This document shows positions 37,750 through 39,949 of a stretch of 52,216 nucleotides of DNA, piece after piece. Source of the DNA: Candidatus Thorarchaeota archaeon (GTDB lineage Archaea > Asgardarchaeota > Thorarchaeia > Thorarchaeales > Thorarchaeaceae); the NCBI GenBank assembly GCA_048882485.1, contig JBHLRP010000019.1, positions 1 to 52,216 of the forward strand, read 5' to 3'. The position numbers and the translations under genes are program-made. Each line of letters opens with the position of its first letter. Within the stretch, counting starts at the first letter, position 1. The notes under the pieces are model-generated. The model saw nothing but the letters and a program-made list of their open reading frames with translations. It searched no databases and was not told the DNA's origin.

Positions 37750-38700
37750 TCAGTCAGATGCCGATGCCTCAGCAAATTTCGTATCTGGGGCTCGACTCAT
37801 TTGGTCCAGAATCTCTTGGATGTGCTCTATCATCTCCTCAGGAACTGTGACAAGATTCTCCTTCGGTCGCTCTTCCAATACTCGCAAGACCTTTTCCAAG
37901 CTGTTCTTCTTCATTTGGCGACAGACAGCTCGCTCATATGCGGGGATGATCTTCTTGTCCGGATGTTTCGCCTGCAGTTGTTCTATCAGTCCTAGCTCGG
38001 TGGCGATGACAAATGTGTCTTCAGCTGATTCCGCCACTATCTTGACCATTGCTCCAGTTGACCCAACAATATCCGCGGCATCCTGAACCTCTTCAGGGCA
38101 TTCCGGATGAACGATGACTACAGCTTCGGGGTATTCCTCTCGAAGCAGTTCTATTTGAGCAATGTCAAACTGCTGATGAACATAGCAATGGCCTCTGGGC
38201 TCAAGATCAATCAGTTCCACCCCAGTCTGACGACGCACATAATCAGCGAGGTTTTTGTCAGGTCCGAATAGAACTCTGGCTACACCCAGAGCTGATACAA
38301 CTTTCACCGCATTTCCTGAAGTACATATAACGTCAGATACTGATTTTGTTTCTGCGGTCGTGTTGACATAGACCACCACTGGAGCATCAGGGTACTTCTC
38401 CTTTAGAGCTCTCACCTTTTCAGCACTGACCCAGGCTGCCAATGGGCAAATCGCATCAGTTGCAGGAATATAAACAGGCGTCTTATCATTGAGCACTGCT
38501 GCCATCTCAGCCATAAACTTGACACCTGCGAAGATGATCATGTCATAGCCACTGACTTCAGCTGACTTTCTGGCAAGTTGCAGAGAATCGCCCACGAAAT
38601 CGGCGACCTCTTGGATGTCCATTGGTTGATAGTTATGCGCCAGAAGCAATGCATTGCGTTCTTTCTTTAATGCAAGGACCTTTTGCTGCATTTCAGTCAT
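37750..38700 (-). CDS. nadA: Quinolinate synthase A
   Basis: LAHNYQ, ADFVGDSLQLA, GVKFMAE, YVNT, CTSGNA, GPDKNL, HPEC, GSTG. Three 4Fe-4S cysteines (AICPLA, GHCYVH, AVCRQMK). ATG 38700 preferred to GTG 38736. Confidence 0.95.
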   Translation of the reverse strand: MTEMQQKVLALKKERNALLLAHNYQPMDIQEVADFVGDSLQLARKSAEVSGYDMIIFAGVKFMAEMAAVLNDKTPVYIPATDAICPLAAWVSAEKVRALKEKYPDAPVVVYVNTTAETKSVSDVICTSGNAVKVVSALGVARVLFGPDKNLADYVRRQTGVELIDLEPRGHCYVHQQFDIAQIELLREEYPEAVVIVHPECPEEVQDAADIVGSTGAMVKIVAESAEDTFVIATELGLIEQLQAKHPDKKIIPAYERAVCRQMKKNSLEKVLRVLEERPKENLVTVPEEMIEHIQEILDQMSRAPDTKFAEASASD

Positions 38701-38713
38701 CTTACCGGTCAAC

Positions 38714-38732
38714 AGATTGCACCACGCAATCT
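38714..38732. promoter_or_regulatory. Perfect 7-5-7 inverted repeat (candidate operator) upstream of nadA
   Basis: AGATTGC-ACCAC-GCAATCT, between the minus-strand TATA-like TTAATA (38752-38747) and nadA ATG 38700. Confidence 0.5.
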
Positions 38733-38890
38733 CCACCTATTTAGACTATTAACCAAATCACAATCGGCAAACATTGACGTCCATATATTCGTTTGGCAAC
38801 TTTTGCCTTGCTCAGGCCCGTTTTCCAGCTTGATTTAAGAGGCTGAACACGACCACAAAAAGCACACTCTCGAACACACGGGAGGATATC

Positions 38891-39949
38891 ATAACGAAAA
38901 TCGGCGTCGTATCGGGACTAGAGGCAAGCATGATAGAGGACACTCGCGAAATCATGCGAATACTCCAATCAAGCGATGTCGATATCCAAATTGAGGAGAA
39001 GACAGGAAAAGCACTGAAGAAAAAGGGAGTCCCAATTAAGAAGCTCGATTCTGACCTAATCTTGATTATAGGTTCCGATAAGGCCTTACTCAATTCATTA
39101 CTTCAGCTAGGCGACTCTACAGTGCCATTCCTGCCCGTTTCATCCAAGGGTCAGCCTGACTTCCTTTTTGATGTAACTGCATCCACGTTTGAAGATGTAA
39201 TCCCAGATCTCCTTGACGCACGATGGACTGAGGACCGAAGAACCAGACTTCAGGTGTCTATCGCAGGCAAGTCAAGTCCTCCCTTGATCAATGATGTAGC
39301 AATATTTGCGAGGAGAAGTGCAACGCTAATCCGCTATTCGCTCCATCTTGACAGCGAACGATTCTGGAAGGATGGGAGCGATGGTCTAATCATCGCAACT
39401 CCAACCGGAAGCACGGCGTACTCCATGAGCGTAGGTGGGCCAGTTGTGCTACCGCCCGCAAAGGTCATGACAATAATCCCTGTCAATAGTGTTAATCCAG
39501 CACGACGACCTCTTATCGTGGAGGACACCACTGTCATTGAGATTCGGGATTTGACAAGCTCTGTAGCAATAGAGGCTGTTCTTGACGGGCAATTGCGCAG
39601 AAGGGTCAATAGTGGACCTGTCCTCATCGAACGTGCCAAGGCAGATGCTGTCTTTGTCAAGCTATCAGAAGAACGGGTAGCAGCATTGAGAGGAAAGCTG
39701 CATCAGATGACTGAAGCTTTTGGAGACCTTGCTCAAGACCTACCTCCAAGCGCCAAGCTTGTGCTCAAGGTACTTGAGTATCAAGGGCAACTAACACAGA
39801 AAGAAATAGTTGATGAAACTTTACTCCCGCCCAGAACTGTAAGATACGCGCTCTCCATTCTCATATCAGACGGACTGATTTCTAAACGTGTGTCTCTAAG
39901 AGATAGCCGTCAGGGTTTGTATCGTGTGGCAAATGACAGGAGTGACTGA
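38891..39949 (+). CDS. NAD kinase-family protein with a C-terminal MarR-like winged HTH
   Basis: IGSDK (variant of GGDG), LINDV, DGLIIATPTGSTAYSMSVGGP, LDGQ; C-terminal LPPSAKLVLKVLEYQGQLTQKEIVDETLLPPRTVRYALSILISDGLI...RQGLY. ORF track starts at ATG 38930. In-frame ATA 38891 after GGAGG restores the N-terminal strand xTKIGVVS. Confidence 0.85.
   Translation: MTKIGVVSGLEASMIEDTREIMRILQSSDVDIQIEEKTGKALKKKGVPIKKLDSDLILIIGSDKALLNSLLQLGDSTVPFLPVSSKGQPDFLFDVTASTFEDVIPDLLDARWTEDRRTRLQVSIAGKSSPPLINDVAIFARRSATLIRYSLHLDSERFWKDGSDGLIIATPTGSTAYSMSVGGPVVLPPAKVMTIIPVNSVNPARRPLIVEDTTVIEIRDLTSSVAIEAVLDGQLRRRVNSGPVLIERAKADAVFVKLSEERVAALRGKLHQMTEAFGDLAQDLPPSAKLVLKVLEYQGQLTQKEIVDETLLPPRTVRYALSILISDGLISKRVSLRDSRQGLYRVANDRSD

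What the first reader, a model, noticed from the sequence alone, without database searches (positions are those of the whole stretch)
37750..39949. Candidate NAD(P)-sensing transcription factor built from an NAD kinase, divergent from nadA
Seen: the NAD-binding motifs (ND, TPTGSTAY..S.GGP) are intact, but the GGDGT signature reads GSDKA. A complete MarR-like wHTH is fused at the C-terminus. The gene is head-to-head with nadA, a de novo NAD synthesis gene, across ~190 bp. Known: other NAD regulators are enzyme-HTH fusions (NadR, NrtR); I know of no characterised NAD kinase-based one, although similar fusions may exist in other archaea. Inference: a bifunctional or pseudo-enzyme repressor coupling the NAD/NADP pool to nadA and its own transcription.
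Basis: partly seen in the sequence, partly recalled or inferred. Interest (0 to 1): 0.72.

Follow-up and report, generated by a model that had tools for sequence, protein, structure and literature searches.

The report
NAD-kinase-derived regulator of archaeal nadA
A Thorarchaeota (Asgard archaeon) gene fuses a remodelled, probably inactive NAD kinase to a DNA-binding winged helix and faces the NAD-synthesis gene nadA across a conserved pair of palindromic sites, so it is very probably an undescribed transcription factor that tunes NAD synthesis to the cell's NAD(P) pool.

Summary
ORF 38930..39949 (+) has an NAD-kinase fold with a C-terminal winged helix. GGDGT reads GSDKA, and ND, TPTGSTAY and DGQ are intact. 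It lies head-to-head with nadA.

The genome has a separate canonical NadK, and orthologues were found in all 24 sampled genomes of the family. The link to NAD genes is conserved across at least four Asgard families and a Bathyarchaeota genome. In two further Asgard families the neighbour is a nicotinate-phosphoribosyltransferase-like salvage gene instead.

Footprinting shows only four conserved blocks in the 193-bp spacer: two TATA boxes, a perfect palindrome GGCAA-N3-TTGCC (38795-38807) and a weaker copy 29 nt away (38766-38778). The spacing to the nadA promoter is fixed. The same palindrome recurs in Bathyarchaeota. It is lost or decayed in three relatives that deleted the gene. It stays with nadA where an insertion separates the genes.

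Best reading: an NAD(P)-sensing transcription factor derived from NAD kinase. DNA binding, effector and sign of regulation are inferred, not shown. I found no published description. This scan reached the same reading earlier on other genomes. The gene probably starts at a non-AUG ACG codon (38894).

The parts
37750..38700 (-). nadA (quinolinate synthase). The mechanical ORF runs to GTG 38736; the probable start is ATG 38700.
   Evidence: Pfam NadA E 2.7e-106 and NCBIfam equivalog 364.8 bits against a cut-off of 294. Homologues are 316-321 aa. The TATA-like box at 38746-38753 would place the transcription start downstream of 38736.
38746..38753 (-). TATA-like box of the nadA promoter (TTAATAG on the minus strand).
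   Evidence: Conserved block in 11 diverged orthologous spacers. Assignment as TATA is by inference.
38766..38778 (.). Operator-like site 1, GGCAAACATTGAC. The left arm GGCAA is invariant, the right arm is weaker. It lies 12 nt from the nadA TATA-like box.
   Evidence: The GGCAA arm is invariant in 11 orthologues, and the distance to the nadA TATA is fixed.
38795..38807 (.). Operator-like site 2, the perfect palindrome GGCAA-CTT-TTGCC, 29 nt from site 1.
   Evidence: Conserved in all Thor-family orthologues. There are only 6 exact copies in the 3.96-Mb genome, and this is the only one in a promoter region with a partner site. The same motif is found in Bathyarchaeota at L069:3927-3939. It is lost or decayed where the gene is deleted.
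38833..38840 (+). TATA box (ATTTAAGA) of the regulator's own promoter.
   Evidence: Conserved block ATTTAAG in the orthologues. It is retained in G018, G020 and G006, where it now precedes the beta-CASP gene.
38881..38885 (+). GGAGG, a Shine-Dalgarno-like element 8 nt before ACG 38894.
38894..39949 (+). NadK-wHTH regulator gene. The probable start is ACG 38894 (351 aa); the first canonical start is ATG 38930 (339 aa).
   Evidence: The ACG column is ATG or TTG in other orthologues. The 12 codons before ATG 38930 encode the conserved TKIGVVSGLEAS with mostly synonymous changes.
39071..39085 (+). Altered catalytic and ATP loop: GSDKA instead of GGDGT.
   Evidence: Of 74 fusion representatives, 56 have a degenerate motif, 45 of those keep the Asp, and 28 of those have R or K at position 4.
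39290..39658 (+). NAD_kinase_C domain with intact NAD-binding motifs: ND at 39290-39295, TPTGSTAY at 39398-39421, and DGQ.
   Evidence: The roles of the motifs are taken from PMC9763689.
39668..39736 (+). Linker helix (residues 247-269).
   Evidence: AF2 model; pLDDT is low at residues 255-263.
39737..39928 (+). C-terminal winged helix-turn-helix. The recognition helix carries PRTVRYALS.
   Evidence: Pfam MarR_2 and HTH_24, AF2 secondary structure, and conservation of LPPSAKL...RTVRYAL.
39951..42092 (+). Beta-CASP/MBL nuclease gene directly downstream, probably co-transcribed. It is not part of the NAD link.
   Evidence: It starts 1 nt after the regulator's stop. It is syntenic in the Thor family. 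It follows the promoter directly where the regulator is deleted.

Best explanation
The gene encodes a transcription factor whose sensor is a remodelled NAD kinase. Inferred: the protein assembles through its NadK-like body, as NAD kinases do. This would present two C-terminal winged helices to the palindrome GGCAA-N3-TTGCC (38795-38807) and to the weaker copy 29 nt away (38766-38778), which abuts the nadA promoter. The retained NAD pocket (ND, TPTGSTAY, DGQ) would bind NAD(P)(H) or a close relative and change DNA affinity, so nadA transcription follows the pyridine-nucleotide pool. The phosphoryl-transfer loop is rebuilt (GSDK, GQPDFL) and a canonical NadK does the housekeeping reaction, so this copy is most likely a non-catalytic sensor. 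Shown here: the fold, the motif states, the separate NadK, the conserved NAD-gene linkage, and operator conservation together with its co-loss. Inferred: DNA binding, effector identity, loss of catalysis, and the sign of regulation. On the sign, site geometry slightly favours activation and the pattern of gene loss favours repression.
For: Domain architecture and motif states.

Separate canonical NadK: it lies on C6 with GGDGT intact. Orthologues were found in 24 of 24 family genomes, whether or not the fusion is present.

Loss in relatives: the fusion was not found in several nadA-bearing relatives, so it is not essential.

Tree: 48 plain NadKs, all with GGDG, form a starred clade (98) apart from the fusions. 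Among the 74 fusion representatives 56 have a degenerate GGDG, and in the alignment of 78 full-length fusions N121, G160 and D219 are invariant.

Linkage to nadA: divergent adjacency was seen in 15 of 17 relatives, down to 31% identity. It was also seen in Asgard families f5 and f15.

Linkage in Bathyarchaeota: the fusion lies next to a nadX-nadA operon.

Linkage to salvage: in Asgard families f16 and f20 the neighbour is a NAPRTase-like salvage gene.

Footprint: only two TATA boxes and two sites are conserved across 11 diverged spacers, and the spacing to the nadA TATA is fixed.

Motif recurrence: it appears in Bathyarchaeota L069 as a perfect copy. One-mismatch copies lie in the f5 and f15 spacers. 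One lies upstream of the unlinked nadA of G031. The chance of a hit with at most one mismatch in about 300 nt is roughly 0.01.

Natural controls: site 2 is lost or decayed in G018, G020 and G006, which deleted the gene. No site was found upstream of nadA in 8 fusion-less Asgard genomes. In G016 both sites stayed with nadA after an insertion.

Intermediate form: in G031 the fusion keeps GGDGT and GFL and is the only NadK found. G000, G025 and G028 have degenerate fusions and each has a separate NadK.
Against: There is no experimental evidence of DNA binding, ligand binding or lack of kinase activity. The catalytic Asp50 is kept, and the new N-domain motifs (GSD[KR], KGQPDFLFD) are themselves strongly conserved, so an altered activity is not excluded. 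In this genome no further NAD gene carries the motif: nadB and nadC upstreams are negative, so the regulon would be a single promoter region. Many of the loci compared are related genomes and are not independent. Adjacency means one deletion can remove both a site and the gene. Fusions in Nitrososphaerales, Micrarchaeota and one other lineage show no NAD-gene neighbour.
Confidence: 0.75

Rival explanations
1. Bifunctional 'trigger enzyme'. The protein is still an active NAD (or NADH) kinase and also regulates nadA, as RbkR is both riboflavin kinase and regulator.
For: Asp50 of the GGDG loop is retained and all NAD-binding motifs are intact. About a quarter of fusion representatives keep GGDG. 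In G031 the fusion is the only NadK found, so bifunctional members probably exist in the family.
Against: In this clade two N-domain signatures are changed: GGDG to GSDK and G-x-x-GFL to GQPDFL. NadK equivalog models score less than half of their cut-offs. A canonical NadK was found in every family genome searched. The fusion has been lost in several relatives.
Confidence: 0.15
2. Regulator of its own operon (regulator plus beta-CASP nuclease) that uses NAD(P)(H) as a general redox or energy signal. Adjacency to nadA would be incidental synteny.
For: The beta-CASP gene follows directly and is syntenic in the Thor family. Site 2 lies upstream of the regulator's own TATA box. Some distant fusions have no NAD-gene neighbour.
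Against: Site spacing is fixed relative to the nadA TATA and variable (26-39 nt) relative to the regulator's own TATA. In G016 the sites stayed with nadA after an insertion. The unlinked nadA of G031 still has a site. The Bathyarchaeota locus has nadX-nadA and no beta-CASP gene. Families f16 and f20 link the fusion to a NAPRTase-like gene.
Confidence: 0.05
3. Not a DNA-binding factor. The winged helix mediates protein contacts or is vestigial on an odd NAD-kinase paralogue, and the conserved palindromes are bound by another factor.
For: The MarR_2 match is marginal (28.4 against 27 bits). The closest solved winged helices by sequence include TFE, at E of about 0.03.
Against: The recognition-helix sequence PRTVRYAL co-occurs with the GGCAA-N3-TTGCC motif across phyla. 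Lineages with a different helix lack the motif. The palindrome decays where the gene is lost.
Confidence: 0.05

Closest known systems
RbkR, archaeal riboflavin kinase/wHTH regulator (Rodionova et al. 2017, PMC5397151)
   Same: It is an archaeal cofactor-pathway kinase fused to a MarR-type winged helix. It binds palindromic operators, sometimes two adjacent ones, placed just upstream of promoter elements. It sits next to its target biosynthesis genes, and its kinase domain doubles as the sensor.
   Different: The kinase fold is unrelated (CTP-dependent RibK, not NadK). The wHTH is N-terminal there and C-terminal here. RbkR is the sole active riboflavin kinase in most genomes, whereas here the catalytic loop is degenerate and a separate NadK exists. 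The pathway is riboflavin, not NAD.
NrtR, Nudix-related NAD regulator of bacteria (Rodionov et al. 2008, PMC2330246)
   Same: It has an enzyme-derived N-terminal effector domain with a perturbed catalytic signature and a C-terminal wHTH. It controls NAD synthesis genes. The proposed origin is the same: an enzyme-HTH fusion followed by loss of an activity made redundant by an active paralogue.
   Different: The sensor is a Nudix fold that binds ADP-ribose, not an NadK fold. NrtR is bacterial and is documented as a repressor. There is no sequence relationship.
Canonical NAD kinase (NadK/PpnK; e.g. PDB 7qvs, 2an1, 1suw)
   Same: It has the same two-domain fold (TM 0.76-0.81 by target) and the same NE/D, TPTGSTAY and DGQ NAD-binding motifs.
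   Different: Here GGDG reads GSDK and GxxGFL reads GQPDFL. There is an extra linker helix and wHTH. On the tree the protein lies outside the clade of plain NadKs. It scores below all NadK equivalog cut-offs.
NadR (enterobacterial trifunctional NAD repressor) and NiaR
   Same: Both are NAD-pathway regulators that sense a pathway metabolite. NadR is also an HTH fused to NAD-pathway enzyme domains.
   Different: The enzyme domains differ (NMN adenylyltransferase and RNam kinase in NadR, a 3H domain in NiaR). Both are bacterial and unrelated in sequence.

Membership tests
NAD kinase (NadK, EC 2.7.1.23) | Two-domain NadK fold | tested here: met
   AF2 pLDDT 92.4. The Foldseek top 50 are all NAD(H) kinases, E down to 5e-23, TM by target up to 0.81.
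NAD kinase (NadK, EC 2.7.1.23) | GGDG motif (catalytic Asp in a Gly-rich ATP loop) | tested here: not met
   The motif reads GSDKA. The Asp is kept and two Gly are replaced. The change is conserved as GSD[KR] in the Thor clade.
NAD kinase (NadK, EC 2.7.1.23) | [quoted passage not shown] | tested here: met
   N121-D122, T157-Y164 and G169-G170-P171 are present. N121 and G160 are invariant in 78 fusions. Motif roles are from PMC9763689.
NAD kinase (NadK, EC 2.7.1.23) | Score above curated family thresholds | tested here: not met
   Best NCBIfam NadK equivalog 139 bits against a cut-off of 326. Pfam NAD_kinase (N domain) 17 bits against 25.5. Only NAD_kinase_C passes.
NAD kinase (NadK, EC 2.7.1.23) | Phosphorylates NAD to NADP | not testable with these tools
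   This needs an enzyme assay.
MarR family transcription regulators | wHTH matching the MarR profiles | tested here: inconclusive
   MarR_2 scores 28.4 bits (cut-off 27) and MarR scores 17.3 bits (cut-off 24.6). HTH_24 also matches.
MarR family transcription regulators | Stand-alone protein of about 150 aa whose N- and C-terminal helices form the dimer interface around the wHTH | tested here: not met
   The wHTH (273-333) is a bare C-terminal module behind one linker helix. Any dimerisation must come from the NadK body.
Enzyme-derived cofactor regulators ('trigger enzyme' type: RbkR, NrtR, NadR, BirA) | Pathway-enzyme domain fused to an HTH domain | tested here: met
Enzyme-derived cofactor regulators ('trigger enzyme' type: RbkR, NrtR, NadR, BirA) | Conserved genomic association with genes of the same pathway | tested here: met
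   The neighbour is nadA in Asgard families f1, f2, f5 and f15. It is nadX-nadA in Bathyarchaeota and a NAPRTase-like gene in f16 and f20.
Enzyme-derived cofactor regulators ('trigger enzyme' type: RbkR, NrtR, NadR, BirA) | Conserved palindromic operator upstream of target genes that co-varies with presence of the regulator | tested here: met
Enzyme-derived cofactor regulators ('trigger enzyme' type: RbkR, NrtR, NadR, BirA) | Specific DNA binding modulated by a pathway metabolite | not testable with these tools
   This needs EMSA or fluorescence polarisation with and without ligands.

The most novel reading that the evidence does not exclude
This is one member of a pan-archaeal family of NadK-derived transcription factors, seen in Asgard, Bathyarchaeota, Nitrososphaerales, Micrarchaeota and a Methanobacteriota-labelled MAG. 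The family would be the first dedicated regulator of NAD metabolism known in Archaea. It would be caught at several evolutionary stages: bifunctional kinase/regulators that are the sole NadK (G031, DPANN-type members with GGDGT), and pure sensors in which the ATP loop was rebuilt with a basic residue (GxD[RK]). That residue might read the 2'-phosphate, allowing the protein to tell NADP from NAD.
Probability: 0.4. Interest if true: 0.85.

Novelty: new variant of a known kind. Interest (0 to 1): 0.72.

Why it matters
In six full-text searches I found no transcription factor for NAD metabolism described in Archaea. The bacterial ones (NadR, NiaR, NrtR) were found by this same kind of comparative genomics. 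This family would fill that gap. It offers a compact, testable operator (GGCAA-N3-TTGCC) and a defined target (nadA). It also adds NAD kinase to the short list of enzymes recruited as sensor domains. The family spans members with an intact catalytic loop and members with a degenerate one, so it is a natural series for studying how an enzyme becomes a pseudo-enzyme sensor. The sensor domain could also serve as a scaffold for NAD(P) biosensors. Databases annotate these proteins variously as 'NAD+ kinase', 'sugar kinase' or 'MarR family regulator', which would mislead metabolic reconstructions of Asgard genomes.

Tried and rejected
Homodimer prediction (complex prediction, two copies, alignment A2) gave no verdict: score 0.40 against the mark of 0.42. 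It is not used as evidence either way.

The search for related loci failed on the 78-row alignment. With a smaller alignment it was saturated by canonical bacterial NadKs and added only two Nitrososphaerales fusions.

Rfam search of 38600-39000 found nothing at E<=1, so there is no NAD+ (nadA-motif) riboswitch.

A 7-bp hairpin in the nadA leader (z = -2.1) is not conserved in close relatives, so I dropped it.

The genome-wide motif search found no second convincing target. The other five exact palindromes are inside coding frames or more than 500 nt from a gene start. Weaker pairs look like chance. nadB and nadC upstreams are negative. The upstream of the NAPRTase-like gene on C17 runs off the contig end, so it could not be tested.

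ACG 38894 fits better: it aligns with the ATG or TTG of other orthologues, and in L024 a stop codon lies two codons upstream.

The MFS transporter divergent from the Nitrososphaerales fusion could be a niacin transporter. I did not test this.

Literature: six full-text searches found no description of an NadK-HTH regulator.
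Full report
**What is there.** The window is contig C19 of a 3.96-Mb, 157-contig genome. The closest homologues of the target protein, at 87-93% identity, are labelled Candidatus Thorarchaeota, an Asgard group.

ORF 38930..39949 (+) encodes 339 aa. Pfam finds NAD_kinase_C at residues 121-243 and a MarR_2/HTH_24 winged helix at 270-328. The N-terminal NAD_kinase domain is recognisable only below threshold, and NadK equivalog models reach less than half of their cut-offs.

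An AlphaFold2 model built on 78 homologues has a mean pLDDT of 92.4. It shows an NadK fold, a linker helix (247-269) and a canonical wHTH (273-333). All top Foldseek hits are solved NAD kinases, and none carries a DNA-binding domain.

GGDGT is G48-S-D-K-A52, and ND, TPTGSTAY..S.GGP and DGQ are intact. A second N-domain signature is also changed: G-x-x-GFL reads GQPDFL. According to PMC9763689, the Asp of GGDG contacts the 2' position that is phosphorylated, while the NE/D motif and conserved region II recognise NAD.

nadA lies divergently at 37750..38736 (Pfam E 2.7e-106).

**Is it the cell's NAD kinase?** No. The genome has a canonical 292-aa NadK on contig C6 with GGDGT, GFL, NE and TPCGSTAY intact. 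It also has two proteins of about 400 aa from the NAD-kinase family.

Orthologues of the C6 enzyme were found in 24 of 24 sampled genomes of the same family, with or without the fusion. The fusion itself was not found in several relatives that have nadA, including G018 and G020 at 96% and 93% completeness.

A tree of the kinase domains puts 48 plain NadKs, all with GGDG, in one starred clade (98) that includes the window genome's own enzyme. The fusions lie outside it.

Of 74 fusion representatives at the 50% clustering level, 18 keep GGDG and 56 do not. Of those 56, 45 keep the Asp, and 28 of these have Arg or Lys at the fourth position. The NAD-binding residues N121, G160 and D219 are invariant.

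So the catalytic loop is free to change across the family, while the NAD pocket is not. Within the Thor clade the new motifs are themselves conserved, which argues for a changed function rather than decay.

**Linkage to NAD genes.** Among 17 relatives carrying the fusion, 15 have nadA divergently adjacent. These include G025 (another family, 43% identity) and G028 (31% identity).

In a sample of 301 genomes of the phylum, the fusion was found in 86, spread over seven families. Loci from families f5 and f15 again have nadA divergently adjacent.

In families f16 and f20 the neighbour is instead a nicotinate-phosphoribosyltransferase-like gene. In f20 it sits directly downstream on the same strand.

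A Bathyarchaeota homologue (46% identity) is divergent from a nadX-nadA operon.

Other distant members show no obvious NAD neighbour: Micrarchaeota, Nitrososphaerales and one unnamed lineage. One further member has a YjeF-type NAD(P)HX repair gene two genes away.

The association therefore involves three different NAD genes in different lineages. Shared synteny alone does not easily explain that.

**The spacer.** I aligned 11 diverged orthologous spacers. Only four blocks are conserved outside the coding ends:

- a TATA-like box for nadA (38746-38753);
- site 1, GGCAAACATTGAC (38766-38778), with an invariant GGCAA arm;
- site 2, the perfect palindrome GGCAACTTTTGCC (38795-38807);
- the regulator's own TATA box, ATTTAAGA (38833-38840).

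Site 1 keeps a fixed distance to the nadA TATA, and site 2 keeps a fixed 29-nt offset from site 1. The distance from site 2 to the regulator's own TATA varies from 26 to 39 nt.

The exact palindrome occurs six times in the genome, against about 3 expected. The other five copies are inside coding frames or far from gene starts, and no other pair of comparable quality exists.

**Natural experiments.**

- G018, G020 and G006 have precisely lost the regulator gene. The beta-CASP gene now follows the promoter directly, and G006 retains the first codons of the regulator as a scar. In all three, site 2 is deleted or has lost its right arm, while the GGCAA of site 1 survives.
- Eight Asgard genomes from other families have nadA but no fusion. 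None has a site with at most one mismatch within 300 nt upstream of nadA.
- In G016 two ORFs of unknown family are inserted between the sites and the regulator's promoter. Both sites remained with nadA.
- In G031 the regulator and nadA are on different contigs, yet nadA still has GGCAATTTTTTCC upstream.
- The Bathyarchaeota spacer carries a perfect GGCAAATATTGCC. The f5 and f15 spacers carry one-mismatch versions. In f20 the core GCAA-N3-TTGC lies between the regulator and the NAPRTase-like gene.
- Lineages whose recognition helix reads PRTVRYAL, or nearly so, have the motif. The Nitrososphaerales proteins (DRTTRLAL, ERTIRLSL) do not.

The chance of a hit with at most one mismatch in a 300-nt spacer is about 0.01. 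Many of the genomes are related, so I treat the counts as descriptive rather than as a formal test.

**Evolutionary series.** The G031 protein keeps GGDGT and GNLGFL and is the only NadK-like gene found in that 96%-complete genome. G000, G025 and G028 have degenerate loops, and each has a separate NadK. This fits the scenario proposed for NrtR. Under it, an enzyme-HTH fusion first acts as a bifunctional protein. It then loses catalysis where an active paralogue makes that activity redundant.

**Mechanism and its limits.** The best-supported reading is a ligand-responsive transcription factor for nadA, with NAD(P)(H) or a close relative as effector.

The sign of regulation is open. Both sites lie upstream of the TATA boxes, and site 1 abuts the BRE region of nadA. 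RbkR sites have the same arrangement, which its authors read as activation. Against this, the regulator has been lost repeatedly in lineages that keep nadA, and that is easier to reconcile with a repressor or a modulator.

In this genome I found no motif upstream of nadB or nadC, so the regulon may be the single divergent promoter region.

**Start codon.** No ATG, GTG or TTG lies between the in-frame stop at 38831 and ATG 38930. Even so, the 12 preceding codons encode TKIGVVSGLEAS. This stretch is conserved among orthologues, and the changes between close relatives are mostly synonymous.

ACG 38894 aligns with the ATG or TTG start of other orthologues and lies 8 nt after GGAGG. ACG occupies the same column in five of the 11 aligned lineages. 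One of these has a stop codon two codons upstream, and two others lack the internal ATG altogether. G016 also has ACG there. ACG initiation is the simplest reading.

**Comparison and novelty.** In architecture and genomic logic the closest known system is RbkR (PMC5397151). In evolutionary logic it is NrtR (PMC2330246). Neither is homologous to this protein.

The protein fails the membership tests for a functional NadK (GGDG motif and curated cut-offs) and for a classical MarR. I therefore describe it as NadK-derived, not as an NadK.

Six full-text searches found no description of such a regulator.

This scan reached the same reading earlier on four other Asgard genomes. Here I re-derived the palindromes, the co-loss and the cross-phylum conservation independently. 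I also added:

- the NAPRTase-linked lineages;
- the G031 intermediate;
- the G016 insertion;
- the ACG start.

Noticed in passing
window 38881-38932: The regulator gene probably starts at a non-AUG ACG codon (38894), 8 nt after GGAGG. The same column is ATG or TTG in six of the 11 aligned orthologues and ACG in the other five lineages. One of the ACG lineages has a stop two codons upstream, and two lack any nearby canonical start.
   Followed up: yes
window 38700-38736: The mechanical nadA ORF starts at GTG 38736. The conserved TATA-like box at 38746-38753 and the lengths of homologues (316-321 aa) point to ATG 38700 as the real start.
   Followed up: partly
L068 (G016:C142) 1134-3747: Two ORFs with no Pfam family (202 aa and 675 aa) are inserted between the nadA-side operator pair and the regulator's promoter in one relative of the same genus.
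   Followed up: partly
window 39924-42092: A 722-aa beta-CASP/MBL nuclease lies directly downstream and is probably co-transcribed. Its N-terminal extension of about 330 aa matches no family. Its best NCBIfam hits (aCPSF1, Cas14 type VII) are far below their cut-offs. It is syntenic after the regulator throughout the Thor family.
   Followed up: no
window 42102-44048 (-): A 648-aa protein has an Arf/Ras/Roc-type small GTPase domain (residues about 122-261) flanked by long regions of no known family. This is typical of Asgard genomes, and it is syntenic in relatives.
   Followed up: no
L074 1374-2765 (-), Nitrososphaerales: In a Nitrososphaerales genome the fusion homologue is divergent from an MFS/Sugar_tr transporter rather than from nadA. 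This might be a niacin-type transporter, which I did not test.
   Followed up: no
G000 C37:6146-9559 and C30:14842-18243 (L003, L004): The genome also encodes two proteins of about 400 aa from the NAD-kinase family, with GGDGT intact and long N- and C-terminal additions. Their function is unknown.
   Followed up: no
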